The translations under genes were made by a program, and so were the position numbers. The notes beneath the pieces were generated by a model, which worked only from the letters and a program-made list of their open reading frames with translations, was not told the origin of the DNA and did not search any database. Positions 12,989 through 43,322 of a DNA stretch of 64,000 nucleotides are shown piece by piece. Source of the DNA: an uncultured Pseudomonadales bacterium (lineage in GTDB: Bacteria; Patescibacteriota; Microgenomatia; UBA1400; PJMF01); NCBI GenBank assembly GCA_964607285.1, contig CAZSJW010000005.1, positions 9,349-73,348 on the forward strand. The letters are read 5' to 3'. How positions within the stretch are numbered: the first letter of the stretch is position 1; every line of letters starts with the position of its first letter.

Positions 12989-15619
12989 ATGCAAGAAGAA
13001 AAAGAAAAAATGGTCGGAACCTCAGGTGAATCACCAGAAGTGGAACAAGCCAAGCAAATCGGTGATCAACTTGCCGCCAGGTTTAAACGACTGGAGGACC
13101 CATATAGTCCCGATCCTGCAGCGAACCCCACACCAGAAACCATACAGCACCCAATTGAAGACTACCTTGGTGAAATTCACCTGTCGGGTGGCAGATGCCT
13201 ACAAGTTGCAATCGATGAAAAAGGCGATTTAGTAGTTTCTGACTCCTTCCAAAACCTGCAAATCCCTGATGACATTCTGCACCTACGCAGAGGCAACATG
13301 ACAGGATCGAACGAAGTCGATTTATCAAATTCAGGTTATACAAACATCATCCCAGTAGTCATGCCCATGGACAAAGCAAGTGTGGATTGGCAACATCTCA
13401 CAGAAAGCACCCGAGTCATCATCAACTTTGATGTCCAAATGCCACTGATGATACAGGATGGTACCAAGCGCAAACCATTTAGTGGGAGACCACTTCCCCT
13501 GCAATACACACCCGAACAGTTCCTACAAATTTTTGCTGAAAACAAGTCACCATTCTTTGAGCTGGCCCGACACAACAGACGTGACGCATCTGTTTTTATG
13601 TTGCTCCCTGTTCCCCCAGAATTCTCACTTGGTGATGACGCGACAGCTCTAGCCATATGCTTTGAAGATATCATCAATCCAGATATAAGATTGACTGGGA
13701 TGCAAGGGAGTGAATCACTAATTACCTTAGCTAAATTTATCTCATCAGTGATTGACGGATTAAACGAGCACTACAACGGAAAGTACACCGAGCTCCTGCA
13801 AATGGTTGATGAGCAAATGATTGAGAATAAGCCAGGTCTGCTTGCCCGCATACTAGAAAAAATAGTCGATCATACCGATGGCAAAGTAAAAAAACTGCTG
13901 CGACTCATGCGCAATGAAGTGTCAGCTCCAAAGCATCCATTTAAAACGTTACTGCGCCAAATTCAAGCTATGGCTCAATTTGACAAAATTTTGGAGTTAC
14001 CTGCGCCGATTGGCCAAAGAATTTCCTACAAAACTCGAGCTAGGCTTTTAGGTAGAGATCCTAGCCAAACCCTAACACCAAAACAAGTGTCTATATGGCT
14101 AAATGAGCATAAACCCCAACCGCTGCAACTGCATAATGAGCCGCTGCCAGCTCTCGCTGCTGGTGCAGAACAACCGCAGCAGATTGAAGCTCATGCTATA
14201 CAACAGCACGGTTTTTACTTTGAAAGCAACCCCGTACTGTTTCCAAAACTAGCAGTGATCGATAGCAAACATCTTAGGATGGAAAAAACTCCAAACGTTC
14301 CTTGGGGACACGAGGCACACAAACCAAAGGATTTGATTTCCTGGGCTACACAACTGACAGAAGCTGTCAAAGCTTCAGGTTCGCCAATTCCTGTGGGAAT
14401 AGAAGTTTTACGAAAATTTTCTGTATACCTAAAGAGTGGTCATCATAAAGACGCGGAGTTTGAGCTGACTATTGATAACATCAGTAAGTTGCAGAGTATC
14501 AGACAAGCATTTCAGTTTGAAGCAACAAAAATTTTAAATCACATACTTGATTTTAGTCAGGACGATTTAGATTTACATAACGTCTATACTTCAAGCTTTA
14601 TTACAGTTGCTGGTCAATTTTTAGTAGCAGACATGTTCAAAAGTAAGGTAAATGCTGAATACTCGAGACTATCCGATTGGTTGTATCGTGGATTTCGTAT
14701 AATAAATGGTTTACACACACCATACCAGAAAGCTGACAAGGAGATTTTAGAATCTCTTCTAGAAGCAACTGATGAGTTACTAGAAAAGTATGATAATCAG
14801 ATCCAAATGAATCACCCTAACTTTGCATTAATTCGCCAGATGATTATTGCCCTGAAATCTACAGTGAAAATACGAATACTCACTTATAGTTCAAAGGTGT
14901 TTCCCAATTACGTTACTGACATTGCTCTTGATAAAAAACTCTTTACACTAAATAACTTCACCGCGAGAAAAAACTCTTGGATAATCGAGTACCAGCAGTT
15001 CTCCCCAACTACAAAGGAGTACGAGGCATGGCTGAAAGAACTTCCAGCTCTTGTTGAAAAATCTCAATCGCTACAGCTCCGCAGAAGCATGCTGGAGAAA
15101 CTTGAAAACTTTAGGGTTAATAAAATGAGCTACACTTCTTCTGTTCCCCTCAGTTATCTGATGAGTAATAACCGAACACTAGAACAAATGATACTTGATA
15201 CTCAGATCGAAATTCGCAGCATGGACATTCCAGAGCACACTATGGCAGACACGGAGGAAATTAAGGAAGCTGAGTATCTCCTTGAGATGCTCTATGGGTA
15301 TAACCACAATAATAATGAGGTTGTGAATCGGCACTCGATACCAATTGAAATTTACGCCCGTTTCATCAGTGAAAGTTATCATTTGCTAAACGGCATTAAT
15401 TCAAAAACCGATCTTTTTAACTTTATTTCTACAGATCACCGCGCGCAAGAGATGATAAAAAAGTTACTTGAAGCAATAAGTTCCGTAATCAGCTATTTCG
15501 GAACCATGCAAAGACATTCGCTGTTAGCTCCAACTTCAAAAAGAGAAATCATATTACTAGAAACAGTAACTAAAAACATCAAAAAAAGCCTTGAATCAGC
15601 AGCCAAAGTTGCAGAATGA
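12989..15619 (+). CDS. large hypothetical protein (876 aa), no recognisable domain
   Basis: Long ORF transcribed divergently from the 272/632-aa pair across a 238-nt AT-rich spacer. Confidence 0.6.
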   Translation: MQEEKEKMVGTSGESPEVEQAKQIGDQLAARFKRLEDPYSPDPAANPTPETIQHPIEDYLGEIHLSGGRCLQVAIDEKGDLVVSDSFQNLQIPDDILHLRRGNMTGSNEVDLSNSGYTNIIPVVMPMDKASVDWQHLTESTRVIINFDVQMPLMIQDGTKRKPFSGRPLPLQYTPEQFLQIFAENKSPFFELARHNRRDASVFMLLPVPPEFSLGDDATALAICFEDIINPDIRLTGMQGSESLITLAKFISSVIDGLNEHYNGKYTELLQMVDEQMIENKPGLLARILEKIVDHTDGKVKKLLRLMRNEVSAPKHPFKTLLRQIQAMAQFDKILELPAPIGQRISYKTRARLLGRDPSQTLTPKQVSIWLNEHKPQPLQLHNEPLPALAAGAEQPQQIEAHAIQQHGFYFESNPVLFPKLAVIDSKHLRMEKTPNVPWGHEAHKPKDLISWATQLTEAVKASGSPIPVGIEVLRKFSVYLKSGHHKDAEFELTIDNISKLQSIRQAFQFEATKILNHILDFSQDDLDLHNVYTSSFITVAGQFLVADMFKSKVNAEYSRLSDWLYRGFRIINGLHTPYQKADKEILESLLEATDELLEKYDNQIQMNHPNFALIRQMIIALKSTVKIRILTYSSKVFPNYVTDIALDKKLFTLNNFTARKNSWIIEYQQFSPTTKEYEAWLKELPALVEKSQSLQLRRSMLEKLENFRVNKMSYTSSVPLSYLMSNNRTLEQMILDTQIEIRSMDIPEHTMADTEEIKEAEYLLEMLYGYNHNNNEVVNRHSIPIEIYARFISESYHLLNGINSKTDLFNFISTDHRAQEMIKKLLEAISSVISYFGTMQRHSLLAPTSKREIILLETVTKNIKKSLESAAKVAE

Positions 15620-18691: not shown

Positions 18692-20272
18692 ATGCCTGCA
18701 CTCCCATCCCAGCGCGTGCTAGGGCACATTGCCTTATGGGCACTCATAGGGTACACCTGTCTTTTTTTTCTACAACAAACAAATTTGGTAACATCGGATT
18801 TAGGTAGACATATCACTAACGGCCGTGTGGCGACTGCAGCAATACAAACAGGTAACTGGCAGCAATTTACCCAACTGCTCACCACAAACTTCTATTCCTA
18901 CACCGAACCAAACTTTTCTACGCAAATGCACCATTGGCTGTTTGGGGTGCTGGCATCTGGAGTAGAACATACCTTCGGCTTTGCTGGTTTGACATTGCTC
19001 AACATGAGTGTGGTTGGGACAGCATTTGGACTGGTAGTGTGGCTGACTGCTAAACAGTTTGGCATACGAATTGCGGCAGCAGCTGGGTTGCTAGTACTCC
19101 CACTACTTGCCAGTCGAACCGAGGTCCGCCCTGAATCCTTCAGCTTACTTTTCTTAGCTCTGAGCATTTGGCTTATCGATCATGCTACTCAGGGAAAAAG
19201 CTTCATGCGACTTGCAGTACTGGGTGGAGGAACACTACTTATGCAAGCGCTGTGGGTCAACATACATATTTTTTTTGCCCTTGGTTTAGGCGTTTTTTTC
19301 CTCAGCTGGCTAGAGCACTGGTGGCTCAAGCGAGCTCCAAACCCTGGACTCACTGCACTAGTACTCGGCAGTATCCTTGGCACTTTTTTCACCCCCTTAG
19401 GACTAGCTGGTGTATTTGCTCCTTTCACTTTATTTCGCAACTATGGCTATCAGATAGCTGAGAATATGCCTCTGTGGTTCATGCTGGAGCGAATTGGCTC
19501 TCCGTTGTATTGGTACATTGCCAACCTGTTTATAGCAGTGCTACTAGCGTTAGTGGTTTTACACCAAAAAATATTGAGTACTAAACCTAAAATAGTGGTT
19601 TTAGCACTGATTGGTATATTGGGCACGACTGTGCTCAACCGCTTTGCAAATGTTGGCGCTCTGCTGCTTGTACCCGCTCTTAGCCTGCTACTTGCAGAGA
19701 TACCTGTACACAGGATTTGGCACAAACTTACCAACTCAACCTCAGGCTTGCTGCTCACTTCAACAGTAGCAACTAGCACGGTAATTGCTGCCATTTCTAC
19801 ACAGTTGTTCATACCCCAACTCGCAACAGTTGGTGTAGGGTTGCAACCTGATTCCCTACTAGCAGCTGAGTTTATTCGCACCCAACAATTACCTGGACCA
19901 ATGTTTAATAACTACGATATCGGTAGTTACCTAATTTATGCCCTCCCTCCAAACGAAAAAGTATTTGTAGATAATCGACCTGAAGCCTACTCAACAGAAT
20001 TTCTACAAAAAAGGCTAGTAGCAGCCCAAGAAGATGAAGAAGTATGGAAGGAACAACTATCACAGTACCAGTTCAACTCGATTATGTTTTATCGTCATGA
20101 TCAGACTCCTTGGGCGCAGCCATTCTTGATTCGCCGCATACAGGATGAGGACTGGGAACCAGTGCACGTAGATGCATATACTTTAGTGCTAGTGCGCAAC
20201 ACGCCAGAAACAGCCGAATTCATCCAACAGCACAAACTTCCTAAGAGTATGTTCAACACAGTGCCACAGTAA
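18692..20272 (+). CDS. polytopic membrane protein with a C-terminal soluble domain (possible GT-C-type glycosyltransferase)
   Basis: A 526-aa protein with ~12 predicted TM segments followed by a ~150-aa hydrophilic tail (PPNEKVFVDNRPEAYS...). That architecture is typical of GT-C/ArnT/PMT-like enzymes. No catalytic motif confirmed. Confidence 0.45.
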   Translation: MPALPSQRVLGHIALWALIGYTCLFFLQQTNLVTSDLGRHITNGRVATAAIQTGNWQQFTQLLTTNFYSYTEPNFSTQMHHWLFGVLASGVEHTFGFAGLTLLNMSVVGTAFGLVVWLTAKQFGIRIAAAAGLLVLPLLASRTEVRPESFSLLFLALSIWLIDHATQGKSFMRLAVLGGGTLLMQALWVNIHIFFALGLGVFFLSWLEHWWLKRAPNPGLTALVLGSILGTFFTPLGLAGVFAPFTLFRNYGYQIAENMPLWFMLERIGSPLYWYIANLFIAVLLALVVLHQKILSTKPKIVVLALIGILGTTVLNRFANVGALLLVPALSLLLAEIPVHRIWHKLTNSTSGLLLTSTVATSTVIAAISTQLFIPQLATVGVGLQPDSLLAAEFIRTQQLPGPMFNNYDIGSYLIYALPPNEKVFVDNRPEAYSTEFLQKRLVAAQEDEEVWKEQLSQYQFNSIMFYRHDQTPWAQPFLIRRIQDEDWEPVHVDAYTLVLVRNTPETAEFIQQHKLPKSMFNTVPQ

Positions 20273-20280
20273 AGCGAACA

Positions 20281-21963
20281 CTACCTCCTGTGGAACAAAG
20301 TCTCTAGCTGCTCTACTCTGAGCAGCACTTGCGTTGGTCTTCCATGTGGGCAGGTGAGTGCACCAGTTTCTCTGATTTTTTCCACCAACTCGCGCTTTTG
20401 CTCTTGGGTTAAGACCTCACCTGCTTTAATAGCAGTACGACACGCCAAATAGGAAAGTGTACGGTGCGTGGTTTGATCCAGCTGCGGTACACCCGTCTCT
20501 GCCGCTTCTGCTAGTTCTATGAAATAGTCATGCAAAGGGTACCCTTCAAGGAGTATCGGTATTTGTTTGACAACTACTGAATGCGTCTCAGGAACAAACT
20601 GTACGGAAAATCCCATGGCTTCTAAATCTGGCAATAATTCTTGAAGCACTTGCCAATGGAACAGTGAGAGTTGTATTGTTTCTGGAGGATGGCAGGTTTG
20701 TGACTCACTGTTCTCTCGTTCTAACTCTGTTTGTGCTTTCATCTGCGCATACAATATAGACTCATGAGCAGCGTGTTGATCTATTAGCAGCATTCCCTCC
20801 GAAGTTGGCACTACCAAATACGTTTTTGCAATCTGCTGAATGGATGAAAGATCAAGTTCTGCATGTACAGCAGGCATCCAAGGCTCTACTGTTTGTCTAA
20901 ACTGTGCTGCAAGCTCCTCGTTTATACCATATTTTTTCAGCACCCCAAAAGGCGTCTGGTGTATACCTGCACTGGCAGCACGCACCACCTCTTCGGCTGC
21001 TTGGCGAACTGCTTGTAATACAGCGTCAGTATGCATAAACCGTACTGTAGACTTAGTTGGATCAACATTTACATCAACTAATCCAGGATCAAGCTGAATA
21101 TCGAGTAAAAACACAGGGACCGCTTTGGGTTCAAGCAGCGTAGCGTAAGCAGCTTTGATAGTTTGCACGAGCTGTGGAAACTGCACGGGTCTTTTATTCA
21201 CAAAAATAAATTGATTGCGATACGCGCGCTCTGCGTGCTCAGGTGGTGCTAAATGCAATGTTGCCCGCAAATGCGGCTCTGCAATTTCCTGTGCTACGAT
21301 CACAGCCTTTTCTGGCAAGCCTATACATTCACGGAAGCGCAGTAATACATCTTGGTTCGGTGACACTGTTAGCGTGCGCTGCCCATTGTGTGTCACGCTA
21401 AAACTCACCTCGGGGTGCGCCAAACTCAAGTTCACAATAATCGCTATAATTGCGCGATACTCTGATTGGGCTTTTTTTAGAAATTTTTTCCGAGCTGGCA
21501 CGGTAGCGAATAGATCCTCGACCACTAGTTGAGTGCCAACTGGCATACCCAGTGGGCGCGCTGGTGTAGTAACACTACCATCTTGCACTGTCAGCTGAAA
21601 CCCATGCGCTGAGCCTGCAGCTCTGCTTGCAATTGTGACCCTAGCAACTGCAGCCATACTAGCCAAAGCCTCCCCGCGAAACCCAAAACTGTGTATTGCT
21701 TGCAAATCATCGACTGTAGCTATCTTGCTAGTGGTATGGGGTAGAAAACTTTGTTCTAAGTCTGCCAGCTCCATGCCGTGACCGTCATCCAATACTACAA
21801 TTTTTTCAATACCTCCAGCTTGCAATGAGATATCAATGGTTCTGGCTCCAGCGTCGAGGGCGTTTTCAATCAGTTCCTTAACCATCGCTGATGGACGGTC
21901 TACTACTTGGCCAGCTGCGATGCGTTGGATGACTTTATTGGAGAGTTGTTTGATTATTCCCAT
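20281..21963 (-). CDS. mutL: DNA mismatch repair protein MutL
   Basis: GHKL ATPase motifs (ELIENALDAGA, DDGHGM, GFRGEALASM) and a C-terminal dimerisation domain. Confidence 0.9.
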   Translation of the reverse strand: MGIIKQLSNKVIQRIAAGQVVDRPSAMVKELIENALDAGARTIDISLQAGGIEKIVVLDDGHGMELADLEQSFLPHTTSKIATVDDLQAIHSFGFRGEALASMAAVARVTIASRAAGSAHGFQLTVQDGSVTTPARPLGMPVGTQLVVEDLFATVPARKKFLKKAQSEYRAIIAIIVNLSLAHPEVSFSVTHNGQRTLTVSPNQDVLLRFRECIGLPEKAVIVAQEIAEPHLRATLHLAPPEHAERAYRNQFIFVNKRPVQFPQLVQTIKAAYATLLEPKAVPVFLLDIQLDPGLVDVNVDPTKSTVRFMHTDAVLQAVRQAAEEVVRAASAGIHQTPFGVLKKYGINEELAAQFRQTVEPWMPAVHAELDLSSIQQIAKTYLVVPTSEGMLLIDQHAAHESILYAQMKAQTELERENSESQTCHPPETIQLSLFHWQVLQELLPDLEAMGFSVQFVPETHSVVVKQIPILLEGYPLHDYFIELAEAAETGVPQLDQTTHRTLSYLACRTAIKAGEVLTQEQKRELVEKIRETGALTCPHGRPTQVLLRVEQLETLFHRR

Positions 21964-21977
21964 AGAAACTACTACCG

Positions 21978-22448
21978 TTAGAAACTTGCTTCGTGTAACT
22001 CTAGTTTAATTACTTTTAAGTTGGTATCAAAAGTAAACATACCTATAATTTTGTGCCCATTCAAAATGGCTGGCAACCAAAATTGAGCATCATCCCACAT
22101 GTGCTGCAACGGCAACTCACTGATACTAAACCATTCGGGCCTGATTTCCTCAGTTTCCTGTGGAATATTCTGCCATTTTTTAGTTAGATACACATGAACC
22201 TGTTGACTCCATGTTGGCTTTTCGGGAAAGTAAAAATTCAGATCTGCCACTTTTTCTAATTCTAAATCCTCTACCACTATTTCCTCTTTTACTTCTCTGG
22301 TCGCTGCTTGCTCAATTGTTTCATTTTCTTCGACTTTCCCACCAATTCCCAAGTACTTTCCACTGCCAAACCCTGTCTTTTTGTACCCTAGCAGAACTTG
22401 CCGACCATCAATAAGGAATGTCACTGTGCTCTGACTAAGATTTTGCAT
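21978..22448 (-). CDS. Nudix hydrolase (MutT-like)
   Basis: Nudix box GGKVEENETIEQAATREVKEEIVV. The track starts at 22475, abutting the mutS stop. Met 10 at 22448 is an alternative start. Confidence 0.7.
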   Translation of the reverse strand: MQNLSQSTVTFLIDGRQVLLGYKKTGFGSGKYLGIGGKVEENETIEQAATREVKEEIVVEDLELEKVADLNFYFPEKPTWSQQVHVYLTKKWQNIPQETEEIRPEWFSISELPLQHMWDDAQFWLPAILNGHKIIGMFTFDTNLKVIKLELHEASF

Positions 22449-22471
22449 ATCAAGCCCATTGTAACAAAAAT

Positions 22472-24931
22472 TCAAACCTTCACGTTCCGTGTCTCCATCT
22501 CCCGCAGCAGCTCTTCCGCCCGCTCCGTCACGCCCTTTGGCACTCCCGCCAACCGCGCCACTGCTACCCCATAACTATGTGATGCAGCACCCTCAGTCAG
22601 AGTATGCAAAAACACAGGCTCACCGTTATGCTCTGCTACAGCCAGGTGGTAATTGCGAATCGCTTTGGGAAACTCACTTTCCAACTGCTGCAGCTCATGG
22701 TAGTGGGTAGCAAACAAAGTTTTACTATGCCGCTGAGTCAAATGTTCTGCCACAGCCCAAGCAATGCTAATGCCATCGTATGTACTTGTACCTCGACCGA
22801 TCTCATCTAAAATAACCAAACTGCGCTCAGTAGCATGCTGCAAAATAAACGCGGTTTCCACCATCTCCACCATAAATGTAGAAAGTCCACCTGCAATTGC
22901 ATCAGACGCACCACTACGGACAAATATTCTATCTACTAAACTGATCTCAGCTGTCTGCGCAGGCACAAAACACCCAATGTGTGCCAACAACACTACCACA
23001 GCCACTTGCCGCATATACACCGATTTGCCAGCCATGTTTGGACCCGTCAGTACAAGCAGTTGATGATCAGATTGATTGAGGAGGGTATCATTTGGCACAA
23101 AAAGCGTATCGCCCAACGCTTGTTCCACCACTGGGTGCCGCCCTGCCTTGATGCCAATACTACCATCTGTTGTAAACTGCGGTCGCACTAGCCGCTGCTC
23201 CACAGCCAGGTGCGCAAACGCCGCAATGCAGTCTAGCCAACTGAGGGCTGCAGCCAACTGCAACAGTGGTTGGCGATGAGCGAGCACCTGTTCAACAAGC
23301 TCAACAAATAGTTGGTACTCTAACTCCTGAGCTTTTTCTTGGGCAGTAAGAATGATTACTTCTTTCTCTTTTAATTCTGGGGTGATGAAACGTTCAGCGT
23401 TTACTAATGTCTGCTTCCGCTCATACTCGGGTGGTACTGCTGCCAACTGTCCACGACTGATTTCAATATAGTAACCAAACACCTTGTTGTATCTTACTTT
23501 TAATGTCCCTATGCCTGTTCGTTCACGCTCCTGAGTTTCTAGGTTCTTCACCCAAGCTTTGCTGCCGCCAAGCATAGAGCGCAGTTCGTCTAGCTCAGCT
23601 GAATAGCCATCTGAAAACATCTTCCCACCCCGAATGTCCGCTGATGGGTCTGGTAGTAGCTGTTCATCAATCACTGTAGCAATCACAGAACAATCACGCA
23701 GTAGTGCTGAAAAATTTACAAGAAACTCACTTTGTTCAGCTGCTGCCAATAGCTCATCAATACGCTGGGCTGCAACTACTGACTGTGACATCGCCACTAA
23801 GTCTCGTGCCGTGCCCAACCCAACTGAAAGCCGAGAAACAATACGCTCAATATCACCAACACTCCGAAGATCTTCTCTTAGTCTGATGCGCAAACTTTTT
23901 TCTTGCACTAACCGCTCTACAGCTGCCAGTCGCTCCTCAATTGGCAGTAACTCAGCCAATGGCTGCCGTAGCCAGGTACGCAGTAATCTACCCCCACCAG
24001 CAGTTTTAGTGTGCGCCAAAAACTGCAACAACGTACCGTCCTGCCCACGGCCACGTACACTCTGGAACACTTCTAAGTTCGCAACAGTTGCCTGATCTAG
24101 AGCCACAAACGCCTCGGGAGCATACGTCCGCAACTCCCAACACTGTGGAACTTCCGCTTGCTGCGTATACTTGAGGTATCCAAGCAATGCACTTGCGGCC
24201 TTGTGTGCCACAGAGCCAGTAGTTATCCCAAATCCTGCCAAGGCTTGCACCCCGAACTGCCGCTCCACATGCTTAGCACTTGGTCTTGCATCACGATCCC
24301 AATCTGGATAGTGATACACCATAAGTCCAGTATGCCTGCGCAATACTGCCAGTAATTCTGGTCTCTCATAATGAGCCGTGTTTACTATACACTCAGCGGG
24401 ATTAAACCTTAGTAGCTCAGGCTCCAATGCTACCGCTAGAGACTCCCCGAGTGGTAACTCAGCAACTTGAAAGTCTCCAGTAGAGATGTCTGCCCAGGCA
24501 ACCCCCACCCTGTTCTTGTGTTCAAACAGGCTCAGCACATATCGGTTTTCTGTAGCACGCACTGCTTGTTCTGAAAGTTGTGTTCCTGGTGTGATAATCC
24601 GCACCACTGCCCGATCCACTAAACCTTTGGCGGAAGGATCACTAACTTGTTCACAAATAGCCACTTTATGGCCAGCACGCACCAGTTTAGCAATGTACCC
24701 GTCAGCTGCATGAAACGGCACACCTGCCATTGGAATGTCCCCATCCCCCCCTCTTGGGCGAGCCGTAAGAGTTATGTTCAGAATTTCTGCCCCTAACAGG
24801 GCATCATCCAGAAACAATTCGTAAAAATCTCCTAAGCGAAAGAATAGTAAACAGTCAGGATACTCAGCCTTGATACGCAAGTACTGTTGCATCATGGGGG
24901 TAGAAAACTCGCGCTCTGATCCACTAGACAT
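22472..24931 (-). CDS. mutS: DNA mismatch repair protein MutS
   Basis: An 819-aa protein with the N-terminal mismatch-binding motif GDFYELF, Walker A GPNMAGKSVYMRQVA and the ABC signature/TH motif (STFMVEM, LILDEIGRGTSTYDG). Confidence 0.9.
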   Translation of the reverse strand: MSSGSEREFSTPMMQQYLRIKAEYPDCLLFFRLGDFYELFLDDALLGAEILNITLTARPRGGDGDIPMAGVPFHAADGYIAKLVRAGHKVAICEQVSDPSAKGLVDRAVVRIITPGTQLSEQAVRATENRYVLSLFEHKNRVGVAWADISTGDFQVAELPLGESLAVALEPELLRFNPAECIVNTAHYERPELLAVLRRHTGLMVYHYPDWDRDARPSAKHVERQFGVQALAGFGITTGSVAHKAASALLGYLKYTQQAEVPQCWELRTYAPEAFVALDQATVANLEVFQSVRGRGQDGTLLQFLAHTKTAGGGRLLRTWLRQPLAELLPIEERLAAVERLVQEKSLRIRLREDLRSVGDIERIVSRLSVGLGTARDLVAMSQSVVAAQRIDELLAAAEQSEFLVNFSALLRDCSVIATVIDEQLLPDPSADIRGGKMFSDGYSAELDELRSMLGGSKAWVKNLETQERERTGIGTLKVRYNKVFGYYIEISRGQLAAVPPEYERKQTLVNAERFITPELKEKEVIILTAQEKAQELEYQLFVELVEQVLAHRQPLLQLAAALSWLDCIAAFAHLAVEQRLVRPQFTTDGSIGIKAGRHPVVEQALGDTLFVPNDTLLNQSDHQLLVLTGPNMAGKSVYMRQVAVVVLLAHIGCFVPAQTAEISLVDRIFVRSGASDAIAGGLSTFMVEMVETAFILQHATERSLVILDEIGRGTSTYDGISIAWAVAEHLTQRHSKTLFATHYHELQQLESEFPKAIRNYHLAVAEHNGEPVFLHTLTEGAASHSYGVAVARLAGVPKGVTERAEELLREMETRNVKV

Positions 24932-24983
24932 AGGTATTCACTATAGCAAACTGGTTAAAGTTGTCACGATCAAACTGCACTGC

Positions 24984-27401
24984 TCAATTCGGCACTGAGA
25001 CCCTTTGTTTGGATTCAACAATATCTCGCCTGGCACGAAATAAATTGAGTGCAAATAAATGGAACAAGAGTCCTTTGTAAGATGCTTGAACATCAGAAGC
25101 TGTCTCTTCTTGATCTAAAACAGCACCTTCATATCCTGTTAGGGTAAAGAAATTGTCAACTGAAATTTTTAGCAACGTAACTCCACCTCGAGCAGTTGCT
25201 GTTGCCGTTCTCACCCCAAGTCCTAACAAAGCTGCGTCCCCAAAACACCATCTTTTTCCAACTCCACGCTTGCAAATGGATTTCCAGTAAAAGAGTCGAG
25301 CACAACTGGTGGGCCTTCCCCAATACTATCAAGCACAATATATACACTATTGTTCTTATCGCCCACTGCAAAAAGAACTGTTTGCTCGGTTACTTCAATC
25401 CGCTCATAGGGAATAGACTTACTATCCAACGCCTGAAGGACAGTGTTTCCATCGTCGGGCACGAACCACTGATGCATGGAATTTTTTCTGGATTAGCTAT
25501 CTCTGCCGCAATCTCTTTACTAACTCTTGCTTGCCCACTTTTTCCTGGGCTTCTATCTCTGACAGTCGCTATAAACTCAAATGGAAAGTATCGCAGGAAG
25601 TACTCAGCCAGATACTGCAAAAGGGTAGCTGTATCTGTAGCCGTTTTAAGCTCAAGGAGAAAATTGTTTTGAGAATTGGATTTTGCAACACACTGCGAAT
25701 ACCTTCCCCACTGAGCTTGTACACGGTAACATCATCTATCGCACTTACGTCTGCAGTGCGAGGAATACCTAGTAAAACTAGGATCTCTCCTACACTCAGA
25801 GAGTATGGTCGTACTAACTTTTTTTGCGATCCCCCTTCCTCTGTAAACCTAATTTCCAGCAGACCTTGCTTAGAATGTCCAGGCTCTGAAGGCGGAATGA
25901 TCTACAGAGCATCTTCAGAATCATCACCTTGCGAAATTAGTGTAGTGCCAGCCAAGATATGCTCTTTTGTTATACCTAAGGCCTTACTTAACCGAAGCAG
26001 TACATCCATCAGTGCACGCCCCGTAGCATTACTGTCATAAATATCTTCAGCAGAACGTCGGTACTCTATACCAGCTGAGCTTGCCCAGTTAAAAATTAAC
26101 AGCTCACACTTAGCGCAATACTTACCCCAAACAGAAGGGTTAAAACGTAGTGACTCAGATTGATCTGGATACGTAAGCAGTGAGGTAGTGCTAGGGGAAT
26201 CTAGTGTGTACAGGGGATCTGTGCGAAGTCGTTCTGCTTGCTGCAAGAGTGCGAGCACGCTGACAGAAATTGATTCTTCACCGTACTTTCTGATAAAAGA
26301 CATAAAGATCGTTTCTGGTGGATAACTAGCGTGCAGCAACAAATGGGTCAAGTGTTGTTGTGCTTCTCTTTGATTTCTTTCTGGTATGCCTGCAAACGCT
26401 TTTGCTAAACCTATACGTATAGCAGTTTTTGACACCCGTTTTGCTCTAGAAACCCAGTCTTCTTTACCTCGCGTCTCAGCATTATATGTATCTGATCGAA
26501 CAAAAGAAGAAAAAACAAGTGCATCCAATCTATAGAATCACCACGCTCTAAAACAATTCTCTCAGCAATCTCAGTCGGACACACCTGAACCTGTGTCCAT
26601 TCTCTCAACCACAATGTTTTTCTGACCAATTTTTCTACTTCCCTAACTGAATGAGAGAGCATTCGCATACTCATGTATGTATACAGAGCAACTAGCCCAG
26701 AATGTTCTATCCTTTGTGAGGATACCTCCAAAGTTGGGTCTATAGACTCCATGACAGTTATAGCACCATCCTCACCGACAACACCGTTTAAATACTCATA
26801 CAATCGCTGGAAGTGTACCTCAATCGGCCTATGCTGATTTACGCGCTCATCGATGGTCTTTAAAAGATGCTTAGAAATTGCTTTCTATCTCCGTTTGAGA
26901 GTGTTCCCACATAGATACAACGCATATCAAAATCAGATATTGTATCACCTGGGGTGGGTGATTGATTACCATACTCAGTAAAAAAAAGTACTTGGGGAAA
27001 TTGCTGTGAATCACACAACTCACGTGTGATACTTGCCATTGCCTGGCGTTCAGAACTCACAAAAGGATCCATAGGACGTTCACCTATTGCTTGCTTGTTG
27101 GATCGAACAATAAATCCTGGATCATCAGGATCTGAAATGTTTCTCCCCTCACGCTGTATCGCTTGTTTAAAATGGTGTATCTCTTGATCGACTAATCTAG
27201 ATGTTGATCTTCGATTAACTGATCGCAATGGATCTGCGAACGACTTTTGTCCATCATACTGAGCAACAAACTTTTTTTTCGCCCCCTGGGGGGGGCCTCT
27301 TTCCATTTCCTGAGTACTGCAATCAGCTCTTGCTCTGTCAATTGCGCCGCAGGTAATTCAGTATCAGGTAGTTGTGATTTTTCAATGGCATTAACTATCA
27401 A
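24984..27401 (-). pseudogene. decayed ~800-codon multi-domain gene; the C-terminal half encodes two tandem cyclic-nucleotide-binding domains, the N-terminal half is of unknown function
   Basis: Six or more partly overlapping minus-strand ORFs tile 2.4 kb contiguously, each in a different frame. They start at 27401, 27306, 26803, 26528, 25620 and 25477, with an unlisted segment at 25900-25620. The minus-strand translation across 25900-25620 reads ...LAGTTLISQGDDSEDAL*IIPPSEPG...SVGEILVLLGIPRTADVSAIDDVTVYKLSGEGIRSVLQNP, a cNMP-binding domain with an in-frame TAG at the position where the conserved Tyr of GDxGDxxYIIxxG is expected. A second cNMP-binding domain (VLFAVGDKNNSVYIVLDSIGEG...GLGVRTATATARGGVTLLKISVDNF) is split by a frameshift near 25225. 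Confidence 0.55.
27272..27296. repeat. homopolymer cluster T8-CG-C5-T-G8 inside the frame-overlap zone of the decayed gene
   Basis: The plus strand reads cttttttttcgccccctggggggggcc. It encodes the GPPQGAKKK stretch of one fragment and lies where two fragment frames overlap (27192-27306). Confidence 0.6.
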
Positions 27402-27512: not shown

Positions 27513-27797
27513 TTACTCTTGCCCCTGATTGACATTTACGTCAACTTCATCTGGAATATCGATGTTTGGATCGGGTACATTAATCTCTTGTGTAGCATTT
27601 CCACCTTCACCACCAATTGGTGCATCAGTTTCATCCATACTTGGCCCTGTAGACTGACCATTTGGCTTTGTAACGGGAGTGGTTACTCTGTCAATCTCTC
27701 CCATTCCAACCACTACTAGTGCTACAAGCACTACAACTACTACCAGAATACCAACTACCATACCTGTTCCCATTCCAGACTGTGACTCATCTTTCAT
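27513..27797 (-). CDS. small membrane-anchored protein with an acidic/Pro-rich tail
   Basis: A 94-aa protein with one strongly hydrophobic segment (VVGILVVVVVLVALVVVG) followed by a D/E/P-rich tail. It is transcribed divergently from the two-component system. Confidence 0.4.
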   Translation of the reverse strand: MKDESQSGMGTGMVVGILVVVVVLVALVVVGMGEIDRVTTPVTKPNGQSTGPSMDETDAPIGGEGGNATQEINVPDPNIDIPDEVDVNVNQGQE

Positions 27798-42701: not shown

Positions 42702-43322
42702 GTGATTGTGTGCGATACGGATGGTGTCTTGGTAGAGTCGCATGTACCTATGACTGATGCCATAAATAACAAGCTCATACACTATTTTCTCCATGGAAAG
42801 CTCCTCCACTAACATGAATGGATCACTGATAAAGACTGGAAATCATTTGAGGCACCGATAGAAATTTGTGAAAAGTTTCTTGGGCAAGCACCAACAGAAA
42901 TTGCTGCATGGTTATTTGCAAATGAAGTCCTCTGCGCAGGACAAGGAGTTTCTGCCGCACAGCACTACCTAGCTGCAATGGCAAGCAAGGGTGCAAAAGT
43001 ACATGTTGTTACAAGTAGAGCTCCAGACCAACTCCAGGCTACAAAGGAATCTATACAAAAATGGTACCCATTCATTCCGCAATCTAACATACATTTGCGC
43101 ACTGACTCAACACAATCTGGCCGAGAGTTTAAACTGGAATAAGCTATTGAACTAGGAGCGACTCAATACTTTGATGATGATGTCTCAGTCATTCGCTTAG
43201 CAGAAAAACTCCTGCCTCCTTGGATTGCACTCCATATGATCCGTCAAAGATGGAACGAGCAGCATGTAGATTTCCAAAAATACCTTGTTACATGGCAACA
43301 ACTAGTATCACGCCTCAAATAA
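42702..43322 (+). pseudogene. HAD-superfamily 5'(3')-deoxyribonucleotidase-like gene interrupted by two in-frame TAA codons
   Basis: A single frame open from 42672 reads (V/M)IVCDTDGVLVESHVPMTDAINNKLIHYFLHGKLLH*HEWITDKDWKSFEAP...AKVHVVTSRAPDQLQATKESIQKWYPFIPQSNIHLRTDSTQSGREFKLE*AIELGATQYFDDDVSVIRLAEKLL...SRLK*. HAD motif I (DTDGVL), motif II (VVTSR) and motif IV (YFDDD) are all present. The gene is invisible in the ORF track because every piece is under 60 aa or lacks a start. Confidence 0.6.

What the first reader, a model, noticed from the sequence alone, without database searches (positions are those of the whole stretch)
24984..27401. Decayed 2.4-kb gene encoding tandem cyclic-nucleotide-binding domains, broken by multiple frameshifts and an in-frame TAG
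A run of six or more minus-strand ORFs, each in a different frame, tiles the whole mutS-proximal 2.4 kb with no other coding explanation. Translating the unlisted gap by eye shows a textbook cNMP-binding domain (ISQGDDSEDAL*IIPPSEPG...GEILVLLGIPRTADVSAIDDV). Its conserved Tyr codon is replaced by TAG. A second cNMP domain (VGDKNNSVYIVLDSIGEG...LGVRTATATARGGVTLLKISVDNF) lies directly downstream. Two consecutive cNMP domains at the C-terminus recall PKA-R/Epac-type architecture, attached here to ~500 aa of unknown N-terminal sequence. Either this is a recently inactivated cyclic-nucleotide-responsive signalling or effector protein, or the local assembly is poor. In either case the intact ancestral architecture would be unusual for a small bacterial genome.
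Basis: partly seen in the sequence, partly recalled or inferred. Interest (0 to 1): 0.6.

Follow-up and report, generated by a model that had tools for sequence, protein, structure and literature searches.

The report
Dead cyclic-nucleotide sensor gene beside mutS
This 2.3-kb stretch is a real, recently broken gene (five single-base deletions and one premature stop) that once encoded a rare protein with two cyclic-nucleotide-binding domains; it is an ordinary pseudogene of an unusually rare family.

Summary
On the minus strand of 24984-27306 (possibly to 27401), codon usage follows a chain of ORFs that change frame.

- **Orthologue.** One intact orthologue exists: P0001, 774 aa, about 65% identical, in NCBI metagenome assembly GCA_020049755.1. 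It aligns end to end with the window.
- **Lesions.** That alignment needs exactly five frame changes. Each is a 1-nt deletion in or beside a short homopolymer. It also needs one in-frame TAG, where the orthologue has Tyr (LYIIPP). A sixth frameshift in a C8-G5-A8 tract near the 5' end is possible.
- **Domains.** The repaired protein has two Pfam cNMP_binding domains (54.9 bits) after about 445 aa that match no known family.
- **Not an artefact.** A separate 1324-nt contig differs from the window by 2 SNPs and carries the same three frameshifts and the same TAG. The other 52.8 kb of ORFs in the window hold 839 homopolymers of 4 or more bases and show no frame breaks. TAG is a normal stop codon in this genome.
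- **Recent.** Codon usage in the pieces is undecayed. dN/dS against the orthologue is 0.17, against 0.10-0.12 for neighbouring genes.

No third family member was found in any database searched. The N-terminal fold and function stay unknown. Overall this is an ordinary pseudogene, with mild interest for the orphan family.

The parts
24984..27306 (-). Pseudogene body, from ATG 27306 to the TGA stop at 24986-24984. It is homologous over its full length to the intact 774-aa protein P0001.
   Evidence: Frameshift-aware protein-to-DNA alignment, score 2287, covering 27336-24990. The repaired protein is 65-66% identical to P0001.
27297..27401 (-). Possible 5' extension of the ancestral ORF (frame 2, TTG 27401). 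If real, it would need a sixth 1-nt deletion in the tract below.
   Evidence: Codon-usage LLR is 19.4 per 60 codons over 35 codons. There is no clear homology to the N-terminus of P0001. Unresolved.
27272..27295 (-). C8-G5-A8 homopolymer cluster near the 5' end. It is the candidate site of the possible sixth frameshift.
   Evidence: Sequence shown.
26878..26884 (-). Frameshift 1: 1 nt missing at AGAAAG/CA. Translation from ATG 27306 then stops at TAA 26862-26860 after 148 aa.
   Evidence: The same sequence is present in contig L082.
26509..26515 (-). Frameshift 2: 1 nt missing directly 3' of a T6 run. The orthologue has TTTTTT GCT.
   Evidence: Also present in L082.
25902..25904 (-). In-frame TAG where the orthologue has TAC (Tyr of LYIIPP), inside cNMP domain 1.
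   Evidence: Also present in L082. TAG ends 7 of 26 intact long ORFs in the window.
25666..25670 (-). Frameshift 3: 1 nt missing at or beside an A4 run.
   Evidence: Also present in L082.
25482..25487 (-). Frameshift 4: an A7 run in the orthologue (GAAAAAAAC) is A6 here.
25238..25245 (-). Frameshift 5: 1 nt missing in the TTTTGGGG run. Adding one G restores VLGDAALLG, which matches VLGDGALLG in the orthologue.
25680..25964 (-). cNMP-binding domain 1, with phosphate-binding cassette GEILVLLGIPRTADVSA. It is interrupted by the TAG.
   Evidence: Pfam PF00027, 34.3 bits, E 2.3e-8, profile positions 2-88 of 89.
25140..25396 (-). cNMP-binding domain 2, with cassette LGDAALLGLGVRTATATA. It is interrupted by frameshift 5.
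   Evidence: Pfam PF00027, 27.1 bits, E 4.1e-6, profile positions 3-85 of 89. The orthologue's domain 2 scores 28.4 bits.
25980..27306 (-). Remnant of an N-terminal module of about 445 aa with no match to any known family.
   Evidence: No hit in Pfam, NCBIfam, PADLOC, PHROGs or PDB. phmmer against 1.84e9 representative proteins found only the window's own ORF.
24940..24967 (-). Promoter-like site (GTGACA-16-TG-TATAGT) in the 52-nt spacer between the pseudogene stop and the mutS ATG. mutS probably does not depend on the dead gene for transcription.
   Evidence: This is a consensus match only. The region holds no more such matches than shuffled sequence does.

Best explanation
This is a genuine, recently inactivated gene. 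Its ancestor encoded a soluble protein of about 775 aa. That protein had a lineage-specific N-terminal module of about 445 aa, followed by two cyclic-nucleotide-binding (CNB) domains and a conserved C-terminal helix. In this lineage the gene took five 1-nt deletions, each in or next to a short homopolymer, and one Tyr-to-TAG change. A sixth deletion is possible. Translation from ATG 27306 now ends after 148 aa, so no CNB domain can be made. What is shown: the homology, the lesions, their presence in a second haplotype, and the intact state of the neighbouring genes. What is inferred: in the intact protein (P0001 type), binding of cAMP, cGMP or a related nucleotide to the CNB pair probably controlled the N-terminal module allosterically. 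This is by analogy with PKA-R, PKG, Epac and mycobacterial Pat. The organism has lost this sensor. The deletions are most simply explained by replication slippage together with the known deletion bias of bacterial pseudogenes (my own knowledge).
For: An intact orthologue, P0001 (774 aa), covers 96% of the repaired protein at 64-66% identity. The frameshift-aware alignment needs exactly five 2-nt residual codons, meaning five 1-nt deletions, and one stop aligned to Tyr. Contig L082, from assembly GCA_020049755.1, matches window 26956-25633 at 1322 of 1324 bases with no gaps. It carries frameshifts 1-3 and the TAG. One of its two SNPs is a Leu-to-Ser change in the conserved EYLNGV motif, which fits relaxed selection. 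There are no frame breaks in 52.8 kb of other ORFs, which hold 839 homopolymers of 4 or more bases and 135 of 6 or more (Fisher p = 1.3e-7). Overlapping ORF pairs elsewhere in the window are separate genes with different Pfam domains. TAG is a normal stop codon here. Codon usage of the pieces lies within the range of intact genes. dN/dS against the orthologue is 0.17, against 0.10 and 0.12 for two neighbouring genes. cNMP_binding matches twice, 54.9 bits in total.
Against: No reads are available. The window's contig and L082 could come from the same sequencing run, so a systematic, sequence-specific error cannot be fully excluded. L082 does not cover frameshifts 4 and 5. All five indels are deletions at homopolymers, which is also the error signature of some sequencing platforms. 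The allosteric-sensor model for the ancestor rests on analogy alone. The structure model failed (pLDDT 34.5) and the N-terminal module has no known relatives.
Confidence: 0.88

Rival explanations
1. The gene is intact in the organism. The frame breaks are sequencing or assembly errors, from homopolymer under-calling or a badly polished region.
For: All five indels are 1-nt deletions in or beside homopolymers. No read data could be checked.
Against: The same lesions occur in a separately assembled contig with 2 SNPs. The TAG is a substitution, not a homopolymer error. The rest of the window has 839 homopolymers of 4 or more bases in intact ORFs with no break, and homopolymer density is the same inside and outside the pseudogene. 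Several of the sites are runs of only 3-4 bases.
Confidence: 0.07
2. The gene is still expressed. This would need programmed ribosomal frameshifting, transcriptional slippage or phase variation at homopolymer tracts, plus readthrough of the TAG.
For: The C8-G5-A8 tract near the 5' end resembles a contingency-locus tract. All the shifts go in the same direction.
Against: It would need five separate -1 events plus stop readthrough in a single mRNA. The sites share no slippery motif. The orthologue is a plain uninterrupted ORF. TAG is used as a stop in 7 of 26 genes.
Confidence: 0.02
3. The region is non-coding, and the ORFs and the domain match arise by chance.
For: None beyond the lack of a long ORF.
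Against: There is end-to-end homology to P0001 (1040 bits). Codon usage is coding-like in the right frame throughout. The plus-strand ORFs of 158 and 169 aa have no family match.
Confidence: 0.01

Closest known systems
Tandem CNB-A/CNB-B modules of cGMP-dependent protein kinase I and PKA regulatory subunits (PDB 3shr, 4z07, 1rgs)
   Same: There are two consecutive cNMP-binding domains in the same order. Both phosphate-binding cassettes keep the Arg-Thr-Ala core. These are the best matches among solved structures (E 8e-4 to 0.04).
   Different: The matches are weak. The two cassettes lie about 166 aa apart, against about 105 in PKG. There is no kinase domain, docking domain or inhibitor site. 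The CNB pair is C-terminal to an unrelated module of about 445 aa. Domain 2 has Gly-Asp where the canonical motif has Gly-Glu.
Bacterial single-CNB effector fusions: mycobacterial acetyltransferase Pat (NF058543) and the Pycsar effector PycTIR (PADLOC PDLC02371)
   Same: A cNMP-binding domain is fused to an output module. The CNB domain 1 of P0001 matches the CNB part of these models (E 6e-6 and 8e-5).
   Different: Only the CNB part matches. No GNAT, TIR or transmembrane effector domain was detected. No cyclase gene was recognised beside either the window gene or the orthologue, though not all of the orthologue's neighbours could be typed.
Ordinary bacterial pseudogenes formed by slippage deletions and nonsense mutations
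   Same: There are several small deletions at homopolymers and one premature stop. Homology to an intact orthologue is kept, and codon usage is still intact.
   Different: Nothing essential. The only unusual points are that all indels are deletions and that the parent family is an orphan.

Membership tests
cNMP-binding domain superfamily (Pfam PF00027) | Profile HMM score above the curated gathering score of 27.5 bits | tested here: met
   The repaired protein scores 54.9 bits with two stretches. The orthologue scores 44 bits. Scored alone, domain 1 gives 34.3 bits and domain 2 gives 27.1 bits.
cNMP-binding domain superfamily (Pfam PF00027) | Phosphate-binding cassette with Gly-Glu ... Arg-[Thr/Ser]-Ala | tested here: met
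   Domain 1 reads GEILVLLGIPRTA, and GEIAALLKSRRTA in P0001. Domain 2 reads GDAALLGLGVRTA, with Asp in place of Glu in both proteins.
cNMP-binding domain superfamily (Pfam PF00027) | Eight-stranded beta-barrel fold and actual nucleotide binding | not testable with these tools
   The single-sequence AlphaFold2 model of P0001 had mean pLDDT 34.5 and cannot be used. There is no alignment depth, because the family has two members.
PKA-R / PKG / Epac type regulators | Tandem or single CNB joined to a kinase, docking/inhibitor or GEF module | tested here: not met
   Tandem CNB domains are present. The other 445 aa match no Pfam, NCBIfam or PDB entry.
Pseudogene | Full-length homology to an intact gene, plus lesions that prevent translation of the product | tested here: met
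   Five frameshifts and one TAG relative to P0001.
Pseudogene | The lesions are real in the organism and not artefacts | tested here: met
   An independent contig with 2 SNPs shares three frameshifts and the TAG. No breaks occur in 52.8 kb of other ORFs. Read-level confirmation was not possible, and frameshifts 4 and 5 lie outside that contig.
Pycsar / CBASS-like defence effector | CNB sensor fused to a killing domain and encoded next to a nucleotide cyclase | tested here: not met
   Only the CNB part matches PycTIR. The window's neighbours are a small membrane protein, mutS, a NUDIX gene, mutL and a two-component pair. The orthologue's neighbours include a small membrane protein, a 525-aa protein with no family hit and a MazG gene; two genes cut by the contig ends were not typed.
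Pol-beta-type nucleotidyltransferase (lead for the N-terminal module) | Motif hG[GS]-x9-13-DhD on a beta-turn-beta, with detectable profile similarity | tested here: not met
   A look-alike motif is present (YGNQ-x10-SDFDMRCIYV). hhalign against kanamycin nucleotidyltransferase aligned only that 13-residue strand, at probability 0.6%. The template sequence was verified against PDB 6un8 and 1kny. There is no NTP_transf hit in Pfam.
Phase-variable or programmed-frameshift gene | One switchable tract or slippery site restores a full ORF | tested here: not met
   Five separate sites and a stop codon would all have to be bypassed.

The most novel reading that the evidence does not exclude
The P0001-type protein, whose dead copy lies in this window, could be a new class of bacterial cyclic-nucleotide effector. 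Its 445-aa N-terminal output module would have a fold or activity not yet described. It would be confined to a narrow, probably Patescibacteria-like clade, and the window would record that clade losing the pathway.
Probability: 0.2. Interest if true: 0.45.

Novelty: new member of a known kind. Interest (0 to 1): 0.25.

Why it matters
For genome annotation, this locus should be marked as one pseudogene and not as six or seven hypothetical proteins. For biology, it shows loss of a cyclic-nucleotide sensor in an organism whose nearest MutS relatives are Levyibacteriota/Microgenomates-type bacteria, at about 50% identity only. It also points to an orphan family: searches of 5.8 billion proteins (whole protein and N-terminal module) and of 1.84 billion representative proteins (a 211-aa piece of the N-terminal module) found no member beyond P0001 and the window's own fragments. 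The intact member, P0001, could be tested for nucleotide binding and for the activity of its unknown N-terminal module. The pseudogene itself is not surprising.

Tried and rejected
- **Synteny through MutS in GTDB genomes.** The best hits were only about 50% identical, and none of the 80 loci encodes a relative of the gene.
- **Exact look-up of window proteins.** MutS and the 148-aa, 84-aa and 208-aa ORFs are not on record, so the window's own record could not be identified.
- **First word-based search.** The 329-aa repaired piece found nothing. The repaired full-length query was needed to find P0001.
- The exact 211-aa piece found only the window's own ORF.
- **Further family members.** A profile search with the N-terminal alignment found only P0001. 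JGI metagenomes and IMG/VR gave none. A degenerate DIYDSNATG pattern gave three chance matches.
- **Fold of the N-terminal module.** PDB sequence searches gave nothing and PHROGs gave nothing. Single-sequence AlphaFold2 failed. A MAFFT alignment of P0001 with the exact window pieces misplaced several fragments, so the second structure job was not used. The nucleotidyltransferase idea was not supported.
- **Source assembly.** A literature search for the assembly accession found nothing.
- **Plus-strand ORFs.** The ORFs of 158 and 169 aa are antisense by-products with no family match.

Full report
**What is in the sequence.** Between mutS (22472-24931, minus strand) and a small membrane-protein gene (27513-27797, minus strand), the minus strand holds a chain of ORFs of 69-208 aa in alternating frames. 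I trained a codon-usage log-likelihood on 26 intact long ORFs of the window. Along 27400-24990 it follows the frames 2>1>0>2>1>0>2. Each piece, read in its own frame, scores 10.9-17.4 per 60 codons. Intact genes score 13.6 +/- 4.6. The two plus-strand ORFs of 158 and 169 aa have no family match. The tiling is therefore real and is coding sequence.

**Domains.** With the TAG read as Tyr, the longest piece matches Pfam cNMP_binding at 31 bits. A repaired 807-aa protein matches twice, for 54.9 bits in total and E 8.6e-15. Scored separately, domain 1 gives 34.3 bits and domain 2 gives 27.1 bits. Both cover nearly the whole profile. Both phosphate-binding cassettes keep Arg-Thr-Ala. Domain 1 has the canonical Gly-Glu, while domain 2 has Gly-Asp.

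**An intact orthologue.** A search with the repaired full-length protein found one protein, P0001 (774 aa, 1040 bits, 64% identity, 96% coverage). It lies on a 5993-nt contig of NCBI assembly GCA_020049755.1 (locus L081). The repaired protein aligns with it end to end at 65-66% identity. I wrote a frameshift-aware protein-to-DNA alignment. It needs exactly five frame changes, each leaving a 2-nt residual codon, which means one nucleotide missing. They lie near 26880, 26509, 25667, 25494-25487 and 25243. It also needs one stop, aligned with Tyr of LYIIPP.

Side-by-side codons show the detail:
- The orthologue's A7 run is A6 in the window.
- TTTTTT-GCT in the orthologue is TTTTTT-CT in the window.
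- One G is missing from TTTTGGGG.
- TAC in the orthologue is TAG in the window.

The upstream frame-2 piece (27401-27297) does have coding-like codon usage, and it ends at a C8-G5-A8 tract. A sixth deletion therefore remains possible.

**Real or artefact.** Three lines of evidence argue that the lesions are real.
- A search of 1.84 billion representative proteins with the exact 211-aa piece returned a single hit, a 100% identical 177-aa ORF. It lies on a different, 1324-nt contig of GCA_020049755.1 (L082). L082 equals window 26956-25633 at 1322 of 1324 bases with no gaps. It therefore carries frameshifts 1-3 and the TAG, and its two SNPs mark it as a different haplotype. One SNP is a Leu-to-Ser change inside the conserved EYLNGVVGEDG motif, and the other is synonymous. 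The window's own 208-aa ORF is on record from an 82,323-nt NCBI contig.
- The other 44 ORFs of 150 aa or more cover 52.8 kb. They contain 839 homopolymers of 4 or more bases and 135 of 6 or more, at the same density as the pseudogene, and show no frame break (Fisher p = 1.3e-7). ORF pairs that overlap elsewhere in the window are distinct genes with different Pfam domains.
- The TAG is a substitution, and TAG ends 7 of 26 intact genes.

A uniform homopolymer error process is thus excluded. A local artefact is unlikely but cannot be ruled out without reads, and frameshifts 4 and 5 lie outside L082.

**Age.** dN/dS against the orthologue is 0.17. The two neighbouring gene pairs shared with L081 give 0.10 and 0.12. 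Amino-acid identity is 66%, against 66-72% for those neighbours. Codon usage is undecayed. Most of the divergence therefore built up under purifying selection, and the inactivation is recent relative to the split from the L081 lineage. It is nevertheless older than the 0.15% divergence between the two haplotypes.

**Context.** L081 shares the upstream small membrane protein and has the homologue of window 18692-20272 directly downstream of the gene. In the window, mutL, a NUDIX gene and mutS lie in between. A promoter-like site sits in the 52-nt spacer in front of mutS. An OmpR-type response regulator and a histidine kinase lie on the other side. No cyclase or defence gene was recognised next to either copy, though two genes cut by the ends of L081 were not typed. 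The best MutS relatives are Levyibacteriota/Microgenomates-type genomes at about 50% identity, so the taxonomic placement is loose.

**What the ancestral protein was.** Residues 1 to about 445 have no match in Pfam, NCBIfam, PADLOC, PHROGs or PDB sequences. They also have no relatives beyond P0001 in the protein collections, JGI metagenomes or IMG/VR. The CNB part weakly resembles the tandem CNB-A/B of PKG I and PKA-R (E 8e-4 and above), and the CNB parts of Pat and PycTIR. A motif that resembles the nucleotidyltransferase G[GS]-x10-DxD strand was tested by hhalign against kanamycin nucleotidyltransferase. Only the 13-residue strand aligned, at probability 0.6%, so this lead is not supported. 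The template sequence had been verified against the PDB. The single-sequence AlphaFold2 model of P0001 was unusable, with pLDDT 34.5. By analogy with other CNB fusions, the CNB pair most likely acted as an allosteric switch for the N-terminal module. This step is inference.

**Verdict.** This is a true, recent pseudogene of a very rare protein that contains cNMP-binding domains. The phenomenon is ordinary. The only unusual aspect is the orphan family.

Noticed in passing
window 42813-43322 (+): A 725-nt ORF-poor gap holds one coding-like frame broken by an in-frame stop at 43140-43142. It gives a weak sub-threshold match to the HAD-type 5'-nucleotidase family NT5C (E 0.0045, 17.3 bits against a cutoff of 24.8), and the N-terminal catalytic part is missing. 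This may be a second gene remnant. Rfam found nothing there.
   Followed up: partly
window 27272-27295 (-): A C8-G5-A8 homopolymer cluster lies near the 5' end of the pseudogene and has no counterpart in the orthologue. It may be the site of a sixth frameshift, or a former slippage-prone tract.
   Followed up: partly
window 20281-24931 (-) compared with L081 3595-3604: mutL, a NUDIX gene and mutS lie between the pseudogene and the homologue of the gene that directly follows the orthologue in L081. This is an insertion or rearrangement between the two lineages. Both mismatch-repair genes look intact, even though slippage deletions accumulated in the gene next to them.
   Followed up: partly
L082 position 167 = window 26790: The second haplotype carries a Leu-to-Ser change in the otherwise invariant EYLNGVVGEDG motif of the dead gene. 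This fits relaxed selection after inactivation.
   Followed up: yes
window 27513-27797 (-) and L081 859-1149: A conserved small membrane protein of 94-96 aa, with a conserved AAGGAG ribosome-binding site, lies just upstream of the cNMP gene in both lineages. Its function is unknown and it has only weak, sub-threshold Pfam matches.
   Followed up: partly
window 12989-15619 (+) and 18692-20272 (+): Two large intact ORFs of 876 and 526 aa have no Pfam match at E 0.001 or better. The second is conserved at 72% identity in L081.
   Followed up: no
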